DNA of 64,000 nucleotides from an uncultured Prevotella sp. (GTDB lineage: Bacteria; Bacteroidota; Bacteroidia; Bacteroidales; Bacteroidaceae): assembly GCA_900315545.1 (NCBI GenBank), contig OMZM01000011.1, forward strand, positions 11,760 to 75,759, in the 5' to 3' direction. A program made the position numbers and the translations under genes. The notes under the pieces are model-generated. The model was given only the letters and a program-made list of their open reading frames with translations. It searched no databases and was not told where the DNA came from. The stretch's first letter is position 1. Each line of letters opens with the position of its first letter. Below are positions 3,513 through 63,345 of this stretch, in pieces.

Positions 3513-3642
3513 TGTCGGGAACGTTAACGGGAACTTCACGATGTAAACAGCGAATATGTAGCGTTGTCATATCCACCCGCGTAAGTCAGTTCCCGTACCC
3601 GTTAAGGTTGTCGTTGCAGTTATCGTTAAGGTTCCCGTTAAA
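3513..3642. repeat. 6-bp-periodic low-complexity repeat with inverted arms
   Basis: AACGTTAACGGGAAC on the left and GTTCCCGTACCCGTTAAGGTTGTCGTTGCAGTTATCGTTAAGGTTCCCGTTAA on the right (GTTnnn units); TTAACGGGAAC and GTTCCCGTTAA are reverse complements. Confidence 0.65.
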
Positions 3643-3647
3643 ATCAT

Positions 3648-4097
3648 CTCACTACAAAAACCGTGCCAAACTCGACGGAATTTTCTTTCGCGACGAAAAA
3701 TGATGAATAATTTTGACACAGAAAAACTCTCCAAATAGAATCGGAACAGCCCCTGAAACTGCAAAATTCTGTTAAATTACGGGTCGGCGATAACTGTTAA
3801 AATTGTCAAAGAGTATCTTTGACGCGCCTGTTTCGTCTATTTTGCCCTGCAAAACACAGTGCCCGACACCCCCAAACACTATGTCTGACATCCTCAAAGA
3901 GTGTGTTTGACAATCTCAAACATGCTCTTTGACATTTTTAACACTTCTATTTCCTGCACAGAAACACCATATTGCAGTTAACAAACTGACTGTCAAGAGA
4001 TTGCAGCTGCATGCGAATTTTGGGCGTATTTTGCCCCTCAGATTTCGGAAACGACTTTCGCGGGCATTCTCGCGACAGTAAACGACCCGAAATTGAT
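3648..4097 (+). repeat. Dispersed intergenic repeat family A, copy 1 (~450 bp)
   Basis: Homologous to 31544-31995 (-), 39528-39925 (+) and 62841-63252 (-). Shared ends CTCAC..CAAAAACCGTGCCAAA and TCGCGGGCATTCTCGCGACAGTAAAC..AATTGAT; internal TCAAA-N7-TTTGA array. Confidence 0.92.
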
Positions 4098-4516
4098 AAA
4101 AAAAATACTTATAGATAATTAAATCTTAAATTGAATTAAAATATAAAACATTATATTATTTATACATAATAGTTTATTATCTTTGCAAATAAATTTAGAC
4201 TCTGTAAAGTCCAAAATAAATGTAAAACTCATTGTGAAAAAAGGCAAGGACAACCTTCAGAGCCACAATGAATAAAAATGTTAGAGAAATAGTATAATAT
4301 TATTAATTTAGACATCCTTGACTAAACTGAAAAAGCAGAATTAGCACTTCAGAAAAATATCAGTTCAGCTAAGACAATGGATACCTACGCTTTAATAATG
4401 GGCGTGGATAAAAATGTTGTTGACTGATATGGGCAGTGCTAAGCCTTGCTTATCAACCACTTTCCACGCCCTATTTCATTAACAAAAAGGGGCTTTTGGC
4501 TTACTATATTACAAAT

Positions 4517-5536
4517 ATGAGACCAAACAAGGAATATGTAAAGATTAATGACAATTTAGAAAAGGTTAAAAATTTTGTCAACGAAATTATTATTACACCG
4601 AAACATGCTCTTACAAAATGGGCTAAAATTACGAATCAGACTCCTGCTGCAAAAATAGGATACATCGGACAACACCTTATTTCAATTATTACAGGAGTTC
4701 CTGGAACTGGAACAGGAGCAAGAGGGGACGATTTGGCAGATGGGTCTGAAATAAAATCATGCAACAAAATAGATCAGGTGGATAAATGTAATGATTGTGG
4801 AAGCAGAGTTCTCAGAATAGAATCAAAATGTTCTGTCTGTGGAAGTAAAAAAATAGAAAGGAAAAATGATAGCAAATGGTTGTTTGGGGTTAGAGATGAA
4901 CATGAATTAAAACAATATCTTAACATGGACAGGATAGTACTTTTATTAATGGACTATCCAAAATTTGAAGAAGGGGATTATAAAGATATTAGAATTTCTG
5001 TATTTGAAATATACCCAAAAGAAGACAGGATGAGCGTTTTTGGTAATTTATTATCAAATCATTATTACAACATTTACACACCCAAACTTAAAGACAATAA
5101 AAAAACAAATCCGATGAATCTTCATCCATGGTCATTTCAATTTTACAAGTGCAATCCTATAAAAATTTTTGAGTGCATCATAAAAAACATTGATACTTCT
5201 CCTACTATAATTATAGAAGAGGATACATATATAAAACCACTTCAAGTACGAGGCAATAATTTGAAACCATTACCAATGCCAAGTACTTTACTAAAAAAAA
5301 ATGAATGGGAAGAAATGATTTCAAAAGTAAATTATAAAACAGATATTTTACCTCTAATCTGTCAAGATTATCTTAACCATAAGAACATTACTACATTAAC
5401 AAAACTTCAATTTAAAAACCTATCTATAAAAGAGAAGCAAAAGGCTTTACCTTTTTTAGACATGAAACTTAGAGATAACATTTCTCTCAGACCTATTGTT
5501 TCTACACAGCAGAAAAAGCATTATCAAAGAGGTTAG
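4517..5536 (+). CDS. Type II restriction endonuclease, MamI-like
   Basis: GQHLISIITGVPGTGTGARGDDLADGSEIKSC segment (PD-(D/E)xK-like DLADGSEIK) resembles the MamI family as I recall it; CxxC-x11-CxxC motif; AT-rich; next to a DNA MTase. Start taken at MRPNK (4517), not the TTG/GTG-type start at 4436. Confidence 0.7.
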   Translation: MRPNKEYVKINDNLEKVKNFVNEIIITPKHALTKWAKITNQTPAAKIGYIGQHLISIITGVPGTGTGARGDDLADGSEIKSCNKIDQVDKCNDCGSRVLRIESKCSVCGSKKIERKNDSKWLFGVRDEHELKQYLNMDRIVLLLMDYPKFEEGDYKDIRISVFEIYPKEDRMSVFGNLLSNHYYNIYTPKLKDNKKTNPMNLHPWSFQFYKCNPIKIFECIIKNIDTSPTIIIEEDTYIKPLQVRGNNLKPLPMPSTLLKKNEWEEMISKVNYKTDILPLICQDYLNHKNITTLTKLQFKNLSIKEKQKALPFLDMKLRDNISLRPIVSTQQKKHYQRG

Positions 5537-6419
5537 GACTATTTGCTTCTTTAATCCTATTAAGTCCTATTTTAAAATAAGTTTCATCCAACTCAATACC
5601 TATATAATGTCTATTAAGTTGGATGCAACTTATTTGGGTCGAGGCAACACCTGAAAAAGGATCCAAAACAACATCACCTTCGTTACTACTAGTTTCGACG
5701 AGTCTTCTTATCAGCTTTAGTGGTTTCTGAGTCGGATGAAAATGTTTTTCTTTATAAAAATCTATATCTGTCCAAACATCTGTAAATCCCATTTGTGGAT
5801 TAAACGTTTGAGCTACTTTCTTATAAGGTAGTTCAAAATCTAATACAACAGATAACTTTTCCCATAAATCTTTAGTTGGGAACTGTTCACATACATTATT
5901 CCCTGTATAAATACTCCACATTCCTCCTCCATTTGATTTAACACCCAAAGATTCATTTATCTGTTTGGCAGATAATCCCTTTTCCTGTTGTTTTTCTTTT
6001 AAAAAAGGTTTTACAAATTTCTTATTGTCTTTTACAATTAGAAGTATACTTTCTGTAACATTTGGAAATATTTTATATTTCTTTGTAGCACGACCACTGA
6101 CGGCTCTCATTCCTTTGTCTATAATAATTTGCTGCCTTAATTCCAGTCCCATTTCTTCTAAGTATGGAACTAAAAGAGCTAAAGTTCTGAAATAACCAAA
6201 ACAATAGAAGCTACCTCCTATTCTTAAGATTCTTGCAGCTTCACGAATCCACTTTAATGACCACTCAACATAATCTTTTTCTGTTCTCCACTTATAATCC
6301 CACTTTTCTCCTATTACTTTCCAATATGGAGGGTCTGCAATTATAAGATCTATCGAATTATTATCGATACTTTTCATTGCTAAAATACAATCATCGTTTA
6401 TATTAATATCGTATTTCAT
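5502..6419 (-). CDS. Beta-class N6-adenine/N4-cytosine DNA methyltransferase
   Basis: Motif IV DPPY near the N-terminus, HPTQKP, and motif I DPFSG near the C-terminus. Convergent with, and overlapping by 35 bp, the endonuclease. Confidence 0.92.
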   Translation of the reverse strand: MKYDININDDCILAMKSIDNNSIDLIIADPPYWKVIGEKWDYKWRTEKDYVEWSLKWIREAARILRIGGSFYCFGYFRTLALLVPYLEEMGLELRQQIIIDKGMRAVSGRATKKYKIFPNVTESILLIVKDNKKFVKPFLKEKQQEKGLSAKQINESLGVKSNGGGMWSIYTGNNVCEQFPTKDLWEKLSVVLDFELPYKKVAQTFNPQMGFTDVWTDIDFYKEKHFHPTQKPLKLIRRLVETSSNEGDVVLDPFSGVASTQISCIQLNRHYIGIELDETYFKIGLNRIKEANSPNLFDNAFSAV

Positions 6420-6935
6420 TTTGTGGATTTATTATATTCTAAAGAAAAATTATTATGCAAATATAAATAAATATTACGAAAACCATTTTTATTTTATCAT
6501 TTTTAATTTGTTTATAATATTTATTTAACATGAATTTGTTGAACTCACTTATAATCGAGTAATAATGCTGTAATTAATCTTAATATTAACATTTATTTTT
6601 GGATTATGCAGTATTTTCTCCAAATTCGTTTTTGCATTATTTATATACTTGCGGCTGACAAATCCTGGACAGCTGGATATTCACGTAAAATATATCCTCG
6701 CAGAAGCGACTCCTATTCGAATTACATATAATTACTTATCCTGTAAAATATGTAAAATGGCAACTAAACATCTGAATTACAGTCATTTAACAAAAGCAAT
6801 CGAGAACGTCGTGTAAAATGTGTAAAGAAATTATTTGGAAATTCAATTATCAACTATTATCTTTGCAAAGGGAAATGAATATACGAGAATATCTGGATAT
6901 TAAAAATAAATACATTATTTAATTGTGTTTAAACT

Positions 6936-19095: not shown

Positions 19096-19138
19096 TAAAG
19101 AAAAAGATAATAAGTCTTATTGCAGAAACGGAAGCATT

Positions 19139-19254
19139 TTACAGGATTTGGATAAATCTTCTGTAATCCTTTTACAAGTATGCTGTAACAGCGTTACAGA
19201 CTATTCGTCACGCTGTTACGGAGTATCTGTCACGACATTACAAGCCGTTTGTAA
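19139..19254. repeat. Dispersed intergenic repeat family B, copy 1: phased TTACA-N7-TGT(A/C)A array
   Basis: Units start at 19150, 19172, 19194, 19216 and 19238 (exact 22-bp period); homologous to 49353-49468. Confidence 0.88.
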
Positions 19255-19441
19255 TTTCGCACCCGCCGTTGCAACTCGCGATGAAAAACAAGTATTAAGA
19301 CATTGGAAACTGTCATCATAGCCTCTGAAAAAAACCTATTTCGTTGAAAATCATAATTTTATTTGGTCGTTTGAAAGAAAAAACATACCTTTGCAAAGCT
19401 ATGTGCACATAACCGAAATTATTAATTTAAAACTTATTTTT

Positions 19442-31461: not shown

Positions 31462-31543
31462 AAGTTTTAAAATCTTCAACTATGAGAATCACGAAAGGCT
31501 TGCCTGTAGAAGGTAGGCCTTTCTAATTTTGCGGCAAATGGTT

Positions 31544-31995
31544 AATCAATTATTGCCCGTTTAGTGTCGCGAGAATGCACGCGAAACCCGTTTCGGAAAT
31601 CTGAGGGGCAAAATATGCCCGTATTTCGCGTGCATCTGCAATCGCCTGACAGTCAGTTTGTTATCTGCAAACATGGTGTTTCTGTGCAGGAAACAGAAGT
31701 GTTAAAATTGTCAAAGAGCATGTTTGAGATTGTCAAACACACTGTTTGAGGATGTCAGACATAGTGTTTGGGGGTGTCGGACGCTATGACTGACAGGGCA
31801 AAACAGGCGAAATAGAAGCCTCAAAGATGCTCTTTGACATTTTTAACAGTTGTCGCCGAGCGTGGAATTAACACATTTTTGCAGTTTCAGGGGCTAAAAC
31901 TTTTCTATTTGGAGAGTTTTTCTGTGTCAAAAATTTTCATACTTTTTCGGGTCGGAGGAAAATCCTGATGAGTTTGGCACGGTTTTTGCTGTGAG
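31544..31995 (-). repeat. Dispersed intergenic repeat family A, copy 2
   Basis: Reverse-complement homolog of 3648-4097. Confidence 0.92.
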
Positions 31996-35388: not shown

Positions 35389-35514
35389 TCTAAAAACGTC
35401 GGCAAAGGTATCTCAAATAATGATTTTCGACAATTTTTCGCTCAATAATACTGCATGAGAGTGAAAAATTTTTGCTTTTTTATTGCAGATTAAAGTTTTT
35501 TATATACTTTTGCA

Positions 35515-35676
35515 GCGGATTTTGGTAACCAAAGCATGCATGCTTGGTTTTAAAAGGGAATTAGGTGCAAAGCCTAAACAGTGCCCGCTACTGTGATATC
35601 CATTATGTTAAACTCAAATAAACCACTGTCATTTACGGGAAGGTGAGTTTATCGGATTAAGTCAGGAGACCTGCCT
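35515..35676 (+). ncRNA. Cobalamin riboswitch
   Basis: Diagnostic segments AAAAGGGAA-TTAGGTGCAAAGCCTAA-ACAGTGCCCGCTACTGT, CCACTG...GGGAAGG and AAGTCAGGAGACCTGCC, between a TACTTTTG promoter box and the TonB receptor gene. Confidence 0.93.
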
Positions 35677-35743
35677 CTATTCCATAAAGGGTAAAAATCT
35701 CTTCGGGGTCAAGGAGATAATTTTATTAACTAACTATATTTTT

Positions 35744-49252: not shown

Positions 49253-49352
49253 TGCAACGATATGTACCTAAACTGCCGATACCGTAATTTTTTGTGCTCG
49301 GCAATATATTGTCGGTGAGCGACTTACAGCTGCATGCGCATTAACAAACCGA

Positions 49353-49468
49353 TTACAGGATTTCTACAACAATTCTGTAATGCTTTTACAAATAGCCTGT
49401 AAAAGCATTACAAACACTCTGTCACGGTGTTACGGAATACTTGTCACGCTTTTACAAACAACTTGTAA
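49353..49468. repeat. Dispersed intergenic repeat family B, copy 2
   Basis: Units at 49364, 49386, 49408, 49430 and 49452 (exact 22-bp period), with the same half-site order as the copy at 19139. Confidence 0.88.
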
Positions 49469-49477
49469 TTTCTTCGT

Positions 49478-62702: not shown

Positions 62703-62840
62703 GGTGTGTGTTGTTTGTAATAATACATTACTTGACAAAGATACGATTATGTTGGGAATTGACAAAATTATTTCAGGAAAATCGGATGCAAGTATTTAAA
62801 AATTTGATGTGAAACGGCTCTTGCGTGCCGGAAAAATACT

Positions 62841-63252
62841 AATCAATTTTCGCCCGTTTACTGTCGCGAGAATGCCCGCGAAACCCGTTTCCGAAATCTG
62901 AGGGGCAAAATACGCCCAAAATTCCTGCAAATATAAGCCTTTTATGCAGGAAATTCAAGTGTTAAAAATGTCAAAGAGCATGTTTGAGATTGTCAAACAG
63001 TGTGTTTGAGGCTGCCAAACATAGTGTTTGGGGCTTTCAGACACAATATTTCGCAAGCCAAAATACACAAATAAGCGCCTCAAACATGCTCTTTGACATT
63101 TTTAACACTTATCGCCGACCTCGAAATTAACACAAATTAGCATTTTCAGAGGCTGTAAAAATTCTATTTGGAGACTTTTCCTCTGTCAAAATTTTTCATC
63201 ATTTTTCGGCTCGGATGAAAATCCTGAAGAGTTTGGCACGGTTTTTGCAGGG
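62841..63252 (-). repeat. Dispersed intergenic repeat family A, copy 4
   Basis: Reverse-complement homolog of copy 1; array units at 62971, 62993, 63015, 63037, ~63058 and 63080. Confidence 0.92.
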
Positions 63253-63345
63253 AGACGACAGATAAGTCAAAAATTTGACGTTTTATTTTGTATTGTTCTC
63301 ACTTAATCGTATCTTTGCACTTTATTTAGAATAAATAAAACAGAA

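What the first reader, a model, noticed from the sequence alone, without database searches (positions are those of the whole stretch)
3648..4097. Family A: ~400-450 bp dispersed element, four diverged copies in 64 kb, no terminal inverted repeats, no ORF
Seen: copies at 3648-4097 (+), 31544-31995 (-), 39528-39925 (+) and 62841-63252 (-), all intergenic, in divergent, convergent and tandem gene contexts. Ends are conserved but are not inverted repeats of each other, and no target duplication is evident. One end carries three small hairpins (GGGC-GTATTTT-GCCC, GAAAC-GAC-TTTC, TCGCG-GGCATTCT-CGCGA). Copies border accessory DNA: the RM island, an orphan region, the B12 receptor operon and the PP2C gene. 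Known: classical MITEs have TIRs/TSDs, whereas HUH-mobilised elements (IS200/IS605, IS91, REP/RAYT) use subterminal hairpins. Inference: an undescribed non-autonomous element, possibly HUH-mobilised, or a structured RNA; it may seed local rearrangements.
Basis: partly seen in the sequence, partly recalled or inferred. Interest (0 to 1): 0.72.

Follow-up and report, generated by a model that had tools for sequence, protein, structure and literature searches.

The report
Evenly spaced intergenic repeat in rumen Prevotella
A 460-base non-coding DNA module fills about 150 gaps between genes (2.6% of the genome) of one rumen Prevotella species, carries invariant protein-site-like palindromes, has no known transposase signature, and sits at a strikingly even spacing of about 11 kb that chance does not produce.

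Summary
The four window copies belong to a family of 152 BLAST hits (109 full-length, 59.9 kb) in a 2.29 Mb rumen Prevotella MAG.

The ends are sharp but are not inverted repeats. No target duplication, conserved ORF, Rfam, phage or plasmid match was found.

The element is modular: a leader, then two 19-nt inverted arms bracketing 22-bp-phased dyads, then a variable stretch and a tail. Both arms are perfect in 82 of 95 copies although copies average 76% identity. Stems vary without compensation, so this points to DNA recognition sites rather than a structured RNA.

No Y1/RAYT or IS110 transposase was found. The IS91-type search was uninformative, so HUH mobilisation is unsupported.

Positions are lineage-specific. 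One sister species is about 469 bp shorter at the c2 site and has no family A anywhere. Another carries a related family that shares only a roughly 29-nt core, at other sites.

The main new result is spacing. The median is 11.2 kb and 1 of 125 intervals is under 5.5 kb, against about 35% expected. Published coordinates of the P. intermedia repeat PINSR show a weaker version of the same deficit.

Best reading: a TIR-less, trans-mobilised, PINSR/BrickBuilt-like element whose spacing reflects target immunity or selection.

The parts
3648..4097 (+). Copy c1 of family A. Its canonical last ~10 nt (TA-G/T-NN-TTTTT) are replaced at the junction with the strain-variable RM island.
3648..3794 (+). Leader module of c1. 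It includes the TTTCG-N3-CGAAA palindrome and a TTTTGACA motif. The leader occurs with an alternative centre in subfamily A2 and as the only surviving part in genome G420.
3795..3813 (+). Inverted arm 1, TGTTAAAATTGTCAAAGAG. This is the core that is shared with the sister species' family A'.
3806..3943 (.). Array of dyad units (TCAAA-N7-TTTGA type) at a 22-bp period, lying between and overlapping the two arms.
3925..3943 (-). Inverted arm 2, the reverse complement of arm 1 with one W position.
3944..4020 (+). Variable stretch. It is the least conserved part among paralogs and is hypervariable between strains at the same locus.
4022..4097 (+).
31535..31995 (-). Copy c2, between the acetyl-CoA hydrolase and phosphotransacetylase genes. 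It is present in all 9 contigs retrieved. The site is about 469 bp shorter in sister species G417.
39526..39935 (+). Copy c3, with an internal deletion of about 45 nt. It fills the gap between the PepSY-TM gene and the 3' end of mutS.
62832..63254 (-). Copy c4, with an internal deletion of about 37 nt. It lies between the PP2C (SpoIIE-domain) gene and tsaB.
19131..19262 (-). Stand-alone 'family B' array (TTACA-N7-TGTAA, 22-bp period), homologous to the centre of subfamily A2. It falls in a gap between A copies.
49345..49476 (-). Second stand-alone family B array in the window.
3518..3640 (.). Hexamer arrays, (AACNNN)n then (GTTNNN)n, abutting c1's left end. They are an optional neighbour of family A.

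Best explanation
Family A is a TIR-less, non-coding, non-autonomous dispersed DNA element of the kind published as PINSR in Prevotella intermedia and, in architecture, as BrickBuilt in Porphyromonas gingivalis.

It is a cassette of leader, core, variable stretch and tail. The core is two invariant 19-nt inverted arms (TGTTAAAAWTGTCAAAGAG) that bracket about six dyad sites at a 22-bp period, roughly two helical turns.

Inferred mechanism. The arms and dyads are recognition sites on double-stranded DNA for a sequence-specific, probably dimeric, protein supplied in trans. This would be the still unidentified recombinase or transposase, or its accessory factor. With it the element spread to about 150 intergenic sites after this species split from its nearest relatives. 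The centre can be swapped: subfamily A2 carries a TTACA-N7-TGTAA array that also occurs alone as family B. An occupied site disfavours a second element within about 5.5 kb, through a target-immunity-like effect or through selection, and this gives the even spacing of about 11 kb. In this species the family is old, and no retrieved strain lacked it at the three loci checked (19, 3 and 1 contigs). Copies are hotspots of sequence change and of structural breakpoints.

Shown: copy number, ends, modules, invariance of the core, lack of compensatory change, lineage-specific positions, spacing, elevated polymorphism.

Inferred: protein binding, mobilisation in trans, and the cause of the spacing.
For: Copy number and ends.

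Modules and swapped centre. Strictly phased dyad arrays are almost confined to A and B (29 of 31 loci; one of the other two is an N run).

Core constraint: both arms are perfect in 82 of 95 copies. There are 53 substitutions in the arms against 647 expected at the rate of the rest of the element. Mean pairwise identity is 76% and the nearest-neighbour median is 83%.

The same roughly 29-nt core is the only long match to family A' of sister species G418. It occurs 220 times here and 0 times in 400 other congeners.

DNA rather than RNA: no long-range covariation, uncompensated stem changes, and symmetric folding z-scores of -3.8 and -4.4.

Lineage-specific dispersal: the c2 site is about 469 bp shorter in G417, and no family A match was found anywhere in G417. 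An A' site at G418 C99:15852 is filled where G000 C36:4623/4671 is contiguous. One truncated copy sits in G420 next to an IS3-like gene.

No orientation bias relative to neighbouring genes.

Spacing: 125 A+B intervals, median 11.2 kb, CV 0.37, 1 interval under 5.5 kb against 35% expected (minimum 23% in 3000 simulations).

Published analogues: PMC4755523 and PMC4596501.
Against: No mobilising enzyme was identified and no exact insertion junction or target could be defined. The sister species is only about 80% identical in genes, so its intergenic DNA does not align.

No copy pair is more than about 92% identical, and no presence/absence polymorphism was seen at the three loci checked in other strains. 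Mobility is therefore inferred only from between-species comparison.

In-situ invariance of the core in every copy is not expected for dead selfish DNA. It fits host-level function or concerted evolution better.

The genome is a 56-contig, 92%-complete MAG, and 22 of 112 contig ends lie in or next to copies, so some short intervals could be hidden.

DDE transposase families were not searched.
Confidence: 0.55

Rival explanations
1. Whatever their origin, the elements now serve the host as chromosome-architecture sites. Arrays of phased dyads nucleate a nucleoprotein complex about every 11 kb, for example as domain or supercoil barriers. Selection keeps the core intact in every copy and keeps the copies evenly spread.
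For: The core is invariant in situ despite about 18% non-consensus elsewhere. The two families together are more regular than A alone (CV 0.37 against 0.51), and no B array lies within 5.5 kb of an A copy. Median spacing is 11.2 kb here and 11.3 kb for the unrelated PINSR on P. intermedia chromosome 1, which also lacks short intervals. No retrieved contig lacked the copy at the three loci checked (19, 3 and 1 contigs). Orientation relative to genes and to each other is random, as expected for a symmetric DNA site.
Against: 400 congeners and the closest sister species manage without it. Positions are not conserved between the two species that carry related families. No binding protein is known. 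Concerted evolution could also keep the core identical. PINSR on chromosome 2 shows only a weak deficit of short intervals.
Confidence: 0.2
2. It is a classical MITE whose short terminal inverted repeats have decayed or are too short to see. It would be moved by a DDE transposase of an IS that is missing from this incomplete MAG, as proposed for BrickBuilt and IS5-family elements.
For: The leader / 22-23-nt repeat / tail architecture is the same as in BrickBuilt. The left end, CTCCCTGCAAAAA, loosely recalls the IS5-type end GAGACCTTTGCAAAA listed (my own comparison by eye, not a test). MAGs usually lose multicopy IS elements; no repeat over 600 bp other than paralogous LRR genes was found.
Against: The consensus ends of 96 copies are sharp yet not complementary to each other. 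No flanking direct repeat was seen. No IS-like repeat or transposase sits next to any copy.
Confidence: 0.1
3. It is mobilised as single-stranded DNA by an HUH enzyme (IS200/IS605 TnpA, RAYT or IS91) that recognises the subterminal hairpins.
For: There are no TIRs and no TSD. Small palindromes lie near both ends. The spacer of one palindrome is flipped (GTG against CAC) in 27 of 95 copies, as can happen when hairpins form in single strands.
Against: No PF01797 match in this genome, G417, G418 or G420, while 6 of 14 control genomes matched. No PF04986 match, though that control was silent. Hairpin stems show 0-8 compensatory against 19-114 disruptive changes. No conserved tetra- or pentanucleotide lies 5' of the left end. 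At about 460 bp the element is far larger than REP or REPIN units.
Confidence: 0.05
4. It is a family of structured non-coding RNA genes or cis-regulatory leaders.
For: It folds better than shuffled sequence (z = -3.8). In three of the four window copies the right end faces the 5' end of a co-oriented gene.
Against: No Rfam family matches, even at E up to 1. The reverse strand folds as well or better (z = -4.4). The top mutual-information pairs are neighbouring columns, not Watson-Crick partners. Pairing is not maintained. Genome-wide there is no orientation bias towards downstream genes (58 of 104, p = 0.28), and 21 copies lie between convergent genes.
Confidence: 0.05

Closest known systems
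[quoted passage not shown] 2016, DNA Res; PMC4755523)
   Same: Intergenic, no terminal inverted repeats, no real ORF, and restricted to a small clade. It has 177-184 copies in a genome of about 2.7-3 Mb, is largely shared between strains, is absent from recently acquired islands, and is implicated in rearrangements. Its published coordinates give the same median spacing (11.3 kb on chromosome 1) and a deficit of short intervals (1 under 3 kb against 19.9 expected).
   Different: No modular leader/array/tail structure or phased dyads were reported for it. Its exclusion zone is shorter (about 3 kb) and weak on chromosome 2.
BrickBuilt MITE and MITEPgRS/464 of Porphyromonas gingivalis (Klein et al. 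2015, Mob DNA; PMC4596501)
   Same: A non-repetitive leader and tail enclose an internal array of 22-23-nt units. It is always intergenic, species-restricted and non-coding.
   Different: BrickBuilt has IS5-like 12-nt terminal inverted repeats and a variable number (1-23) of near-identical tandem units, with only 19 copies. Family A has no TIRs, a fixed set of diverged dyad units framed by two 19-nt inverted arms, and about 150 copies.
REP/BIME and REPIN-RAYT systems; IS200/IS605-derived palindrome-associated elements
   Same: Abundant extragenic palindrome-containing repeats without TIRs or TSDs.
   Different: No Y1 or RAYT gene. Family A is about 10 times longer, and its palindromes are conserved as sequence rather than as pairing. 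This is my own comparison against established descriptions of those families.
Target immunity of Mu, Tn7 and Tn3-family transposons
   Same: Multiple phased binding sites within the element, and a zone around an existing copy in which new insertions are disfavoured. That would produce the over-dispersed spacing. This is an analogy from established knowledge and was not tested here.
   Different: Those transposons have terminal inverted repeats, 5-bp duplications and encode their own transposase and ATPase regulator. None of these was found here.

Membership tests
Classical MITE | Terminal inverted repeats | tested here: not met
   The consensus ends from 96 copies are sharp but not complementary to each other.
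Classical MITE | Target-site duplication flanking each copy | tested here: inconclusive
   No direct repeat was seen in 96 flank pairs by inspection. Both flanks are merely T-rich. The copies are old, so a short duplication could have decayed.
Classical MITE | A cognate IS with a DDE transposase sharing the ends | not tested
   No repeat over 600 bp other than LRR paralogs in the MAG. DDE Pfam families were not searched, and MAGs lose IS copies.
IS200/IS605-derived element or REPIN (HUH Y1) | Y1 transposase or RAYT gene in the genome | tested here: not met
   PF01797 gave 0 matches in G000, G417, G418 and G420, while 6 of 14 control genomes matched. Caveat: these are incomplete MAGs.
IS200/IS605-derived element or REPIN (HUH Y1) | Subterminal hairpins maintained as structures, and a fixed 4-5-nt target 5' of the left end | tested here: not met
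   Compensatory against disruptive changes were 8/114, 2/51, 0/19 and 2/36 in the four hairpins. There is no fixed flank motif.
IS91/ISCR (HUH Y2) | Y2 transposase gene | tested here: inconclusive
   PF04986 gave no match, but the control panel was also silent.
IS110/IS1111-derived element | DEDD transposase gene and a conserved specific target sequence | tested here: not met
   PF01548 gave 0 matches in G000 and G418, with controls positive. The flanks are not conserved.
Structured RNA family (Rfam) | Match to a curated covariance model | tested here: not met
   The only gathering-level hit in the window is the cobalamin riboswitch at 35506-35692. On the element the best E-values are 0.3-0.35, far below the gathering scores.
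Structured RNA family (Rfam) | Base pairs maintained by compensatory change | tested here: not met
PINSR-type Prevotella repeat | Intergenic, no TIR, no ORF, clade-restricted, of the order of 150-200 copies | tested here: met
   compared with the description read.
PINSR-type Prevotella repeat | Sequence homology to the 188-bp PINSR consensus | not testable with these tools
   The consensus is given only in a figure that is not held. No match of family A was found in 400 sampled congeners, so homology is unlikely.
BrickBuilt-type element | Leader + internal array of about 22-23-nt units + tail | tested here: met
   compared.
BrickBuilt-type element | IS5-like 12-nt TIRs (GAGACCTTTGCA) | tested here: not met
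   The ends differ from the TIR table read.
Bacteroidales inverton (invertible promoter) | The segment between the inverted repeats is found in both orientations | tested here: not met
   All 95 paralogs, and 10 strains at c1 plus 6 at c2, are collinear. Only a 3-nt palindrome spacer flips.

The most novel reading that the evidence does not exclude
Prevotella genomes carry clade-specific intergenic repeats (family A/B here, A' in a sister species, PINSR in P. intermedia) that are laid out at a regulated, even spacing of about 11 kb. On this reading they act as arrays of phased protein-binding dyads that partition the chromosome into domains. Alternatively they are a new class of TIR-less transposon with built-in target immunity. 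Either way, an over-dispersed genome-wide layout of a bacterial repeat family was not noted in either paper I read on the closest analogues (PINSR, BrickBuilt), and I know of no other description.
Probability: 0.3. Interest if true: 0.88.

Novelty: new variant of a known kind. Interest (0 to 1): 0.66.

Why it matters
Clade-specific TIR-less repeats such as PINSR have been known for a decade, with no mechanism or function assigned.

This family offers three handles on that problem:
- a defined roughly 29-nt core that stays invariant while the rest of the element diverges, and that is shared across species. It can be used directly as bait for the cognate protein;
- a swappable centre, which shows that the phased dyad array is a module;
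- a strongly over-dispersed layout that is also visible in independently published PINSR coordinates.

If the spacing is real in closed genomes, one of two things follows. Either a new kind of transposition immunity exists in Bacteroidota, or these repeats are structural elements of the nucleoid. Both are testable in cultivable Prevotella.

Practically, the repeats explain many contig breaks in rumen Prevotella MAGs. They also mark hotspots of strain variation and rearrangement.

Tried and rejected
- Rfam at gathering and E-value thresholds: nothing on the element.
- Plasmid and phage BLAST, and a viral-contig scan for the core pattern: nothing.
- Long self-repeats that might be an autonomous partner: only paralogous leucine-rich-repeat surface proteins.
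- Y1, IS110 and Y2 family searches: negative, with the Y2 control silent.
- RNAalifold consensus: weak at -20 kcal/mol. Mutual information gave only local block linkage. My first covariation screen used criteria that were too loose and was discarded.
- Metagenome scan with MutS, meant to find an intermediate relative with an alignable empty site: best hit only 74% identical, so it did not help.
- Donor search for the hypervariable block of strain L052: best paralog only 77% identical, so simple gene conversion from a copy present in this genome does not explain that block. In other strains 35-65% of variant 14-mers occur in paralogs, which is only suggestive of conversion.
- Orthology of A' (G418) and A/B (G000) positions: rejected once direction was taken into account (which corrects the impression given).
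- Inverton idea: no inverted orientation seen.
- In my dyad-array scan, the reversed-sequence control was invalid because reversal preserves inverted repeats. I use only the classification of the hits.

Full report
**What is there**

Each lies between long ORFs: arginine deiminase / MamI endonuclease; acetyl-CoA hydrolase / phosphotransacetylase; PepSY-TM / mutS; and PP2C / tsaB.

The window is C14:11760-75759 of a 2.29 Mb, 56-contig, 92%-complete assembly. BLAST of copy c1 against that assembly gives 152 hits of at least 100 nt, of which 109 are full-length and 43 partial. Together they cover 59.9 kb, or 2.6% of the genome.

One apparent near-twin (C4:4796, 96% identical) is an allelic haplotype of the c1 locus that was binned into the MAG. 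It has the right flank of the strains that lack the RM island. True paralogs are therefore at most about 92% identical. Mean pairwise identity is 76% and the nearest-neighbour median is 83%.

**Ends and coding**

An alignment of 96 copies with flanks gives sharp ends:
- left end: CTCMCWR-CAAAAACCGTGCCAAAC;
- right end: ...GTAAACGGGCGAAAATTGATTA(G/T)NNTTTTT.

The ends are not complementary, and by inspection no direct repeat flanks the copies. The longest stop-free stretch per copy has a median of 62 aa.

**Anatomy**

The element is modular.
- A leader covers positions 1 to about 150.
- Two 19-nt inverted arms, TGTTAAAAWTGTCAAAGAG, lie at c1 3795-3813 and 3925-3943. They bracket dyad units of the TCAAA-N7-TTTGA type at a 22-bp period.
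- A variable stretch and a tail with three small palindromes follow.

Eight copies (subfamily A2) keep the leader and tail but carry a different centre made of TTACA-N7-TGTAA units at the same period. There are 25 stand-alone B loci in the genome.

A strict scan asked for at least 4 of 6 perfectly phased 5-N7-5 dyads. It found 31 loci: 27 in A, 2 in B, one further TTACA array and one run of N.

**DNA sites, not RNA**

Rfam gives nothing on the element. Both strands fold better than shuffles to a similar degree, with z = -3.8 and -4.4. That is what DNA palindromes predict.

The strongest mutual-information pairs among 95 copies are adjacent columns, not Watson-Crick partners. One is a flip of the 3-nt spacer of CAAACA-GTG-TGTTTG to CAC in 27 copies.

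In the left hairpin and the three tail hairpins, compensatory against disruptive changes are 8/114, 2/51, 0/19 and 2/36.

The arms, by contrast, are almost invariant. Both are perfect in 82 of 95 copies. They carry 53 substitutions where 647 would be expected at the rate of the rest of the element (1.5% against 17.9% non-consensus). This is constraint on sequence, not on pairing.

**Distribution**

The organism is a rumen Prevotella. Identical proteins occur in many ruminant metagenome assemblies. The nearest named relatives are uncultured Prevotella MAGs.

Family A is absent from 400 sampled congeners by BLAST. A degenerate core pattern occurs 220 times in this genome and 0 times in those 400.

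Three relatives were informative.
- G417 (phosphotransacetylase 94% identical at the protein level) has no copy. At the c2 locus it has 68 bp where the window has 537 bp, a difference of 469 bp. The intergenic DNA is too diverged to place the junction.
- G418 (Prevotella sp. RGIG8412, 91%) has its own family A'. It is about 545 bp long, has at least 96 candidate copies that are 85-100% identical, and often breaks contigs. It shares with A only the roughly 29-nt core and a few short motifs, and it has 22-bp units of other sequence.
- G420 has one truncated leader next to an IS3-like gene. Its flanks are unrelated to this genome.

A' copies are not at sites orthologous to A or B. One A' site (G418 C99:15852) corresponds to contiguous DNA in this genome (C36:4623/4671). 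Dispersal therefore happened separately in each lineage.

**Mobilising enzyme**

No Y1 (PF01797) or IS110 (PF01548) match was found, with positive controls in both searches. No Y2 match was found, but that control was silent. No IS-like long repeat was found. DDE families were not searched.

**Spacing**

This is the main new result.
- A loci alone give 101 within-contig intervals with a median of 11.5 kb and a CV of 0.51. Only 1% are under 6 kb. Random placement into intergenic regions gives a CV of 0.82-0.86 (minimum 0.63 in 2000 trials) and 30-34% under 6 kb.
- Adding the 25 B loci makes the pattern more regular, not less. There are 125 intervals with a median of 11.2 kb and a CV of 0.37. 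One interval is under 5.5 kb against 35% expected (minimum 23% in 3000 trials, using only the 682 gene gaps of at least 100 bp net).
- Apart from one fragment lying beside a full copy, the shortest edge-to-edge gaps are 3.6 kb and then 5.5 kb.
- In the window the order is 3648, 19139, 31544, 39528, 49353, 62841.

Orientation is random, both relative to neighbouring genes and between successive copies.

The caveat is that this is a MAG, and 22 of 112 contig ends lie in or next to copies. However, most copies are assembled through, and contigs of 3-9 kb are present in the bin.

As an independent check I took the published coordinates of PINSR in the closed P. intermedia OMA14 genome.
- Chromosome 1 has a median interval of 11.3 kb. 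One interval is under 3 kb against 19.9 expected from an exponential with the same median, and 6 are under 4 kb against 25.8.
- Chromosome 2 shows only a deficit under 2 kb (1 against 9.7).

In the 336 kb of G418 that I fetched, the nine A' intervals range from 14.7 to 45 kb. That sample is too small and too selected to weigh.

**Instability**

Between strains, nucleotide diversity in the element far exceeds that of its surroundings:

| Locus | Element | Surroundings | Segregating sites |
|---|---|---|---|
| c2 | 1.45% | 0.08-0.4% (flanking intergenic DNA), 0.2-0.25% (flanking genes) | 12/460 against 2/932, p = 7e-5 |
| c1 | 5.1% | 0.15-0.67% (neighbouring genes) | 71/458 against 40/2904 |

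Changes come in linked clusters, and one strain differs by about 35% across the variable stretch. Part of the variant sequence occurs in paralogs, which is compatible with ectopic conversion but does not prove it.

The MamI RM island (window 4098-6871) replaces 168 bp found in other strains, and its left junction is exactly the element's end.

A' copies lie at G418/G000 synteny breaks in 4 of 5 mappable cases, against 15 of 94 random sites (p = 0.0045).

**Interpretation**

The data fit a TIR-less, non-autonomous dispersed element whose invariant core and phased dyads are protein recognition sites. It would be mobilised in trans by an enzyme not yet identified. Its layout is shaped either by a target-immunity-like exclusion or by selection for even coverage.

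It is the same kind of thing as PINSR and shares its architecture with BrickBuilt. It fails the defining tests for classical MITEs, HUH-mobilised elements, IS110 derivatives, invertons and Rfam RNAs.

The in-situ invariance of the core and the even spacing keep a host-function reading alive. I give that reading about 0.2 as the primary explanation.

Noticed in passing
window 4098-6871: The MamI restriction-modification island is strain-variable. It replaces 168 bp present in RM-less strains, and its left junction coincides exactly with the right end of element copy c1. A third configuration (a TPR gene) occurs in other strains.
   Followed up: partly
G000 contig C4:4796-5239: This contig of the MAG is a second haplotype of the window's c1 locus (RM-less allele), not a paralog. 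The bin therefore mixes at least two strains.
   Followed up: partly
window 3518-3640; 12 of 15 such arrays genome-wide: Hexamer arrays, (GTTNNN)n or (AACNNN)n, are almost exclusive to the immediate flanks of family A. Eight lie at the left end in the GTT orientation. Read on the minus strand, several start with ATG at the element boundary and would encode Thr/Gly-rich peptides (MILTGTLTITATTT...). Whether they are coding, a target, or an optional module is unknown.
   Followed up: partly
window 3900-3912 (unit CAAACA-GTG-TGTTTG): The 3-nt spacer of this perfect palindrome is GTG in 68 copies and its complement CAC in 27. This is a flip-flop typical of hairpin or cruciform-mediated template switching.
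   Followed up: no
Published PINSR coordinates, P. intermedia OMA14 (PMC4755523, Table S6): PINSR on chromosome 1 has a median spacing of 11.3 kb and a strong deficit of intervals under 4 kb (6 observed, 25.8 expected). The paper's PINSR section does not comment on this.
   Followed up: partly
G418 (Prevotella sp. RGIG8412) contigs C7, C57, C81, C99 (loci L085-L104): Family A' copies sit at synteny breakpoints relative to this genome in 4 of 5 mappable cases, against 16% of random sites. Many G418 contigs end about 100 nt inside a copy.
   Followed up: partly
L031 / L073 (G420:C7:9850-10023): A single truncated leader (86% identical to c1) lies in a more distant Prevotellaceae MAG and ends where an IS3-like element begins. 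The flanks are unrelated, which suggests horizontal arrival or a last remnant.
   Followed up: partly
window 35506-35692: A cobalamin riboswitch (99.5 bits) lies upstream of the TonB-dependent receptor gene. It is the only Rfam gathering-level hit in the window.
   Followed up: no
G000 C43:2-1246 and C40:368-1792: Two 87%-identical paralogous leucine-rich-repeat (BspA-like) surface protein genes. One directly abuts a 5'-truncated A copy (C43:1678).
   Followed up: no
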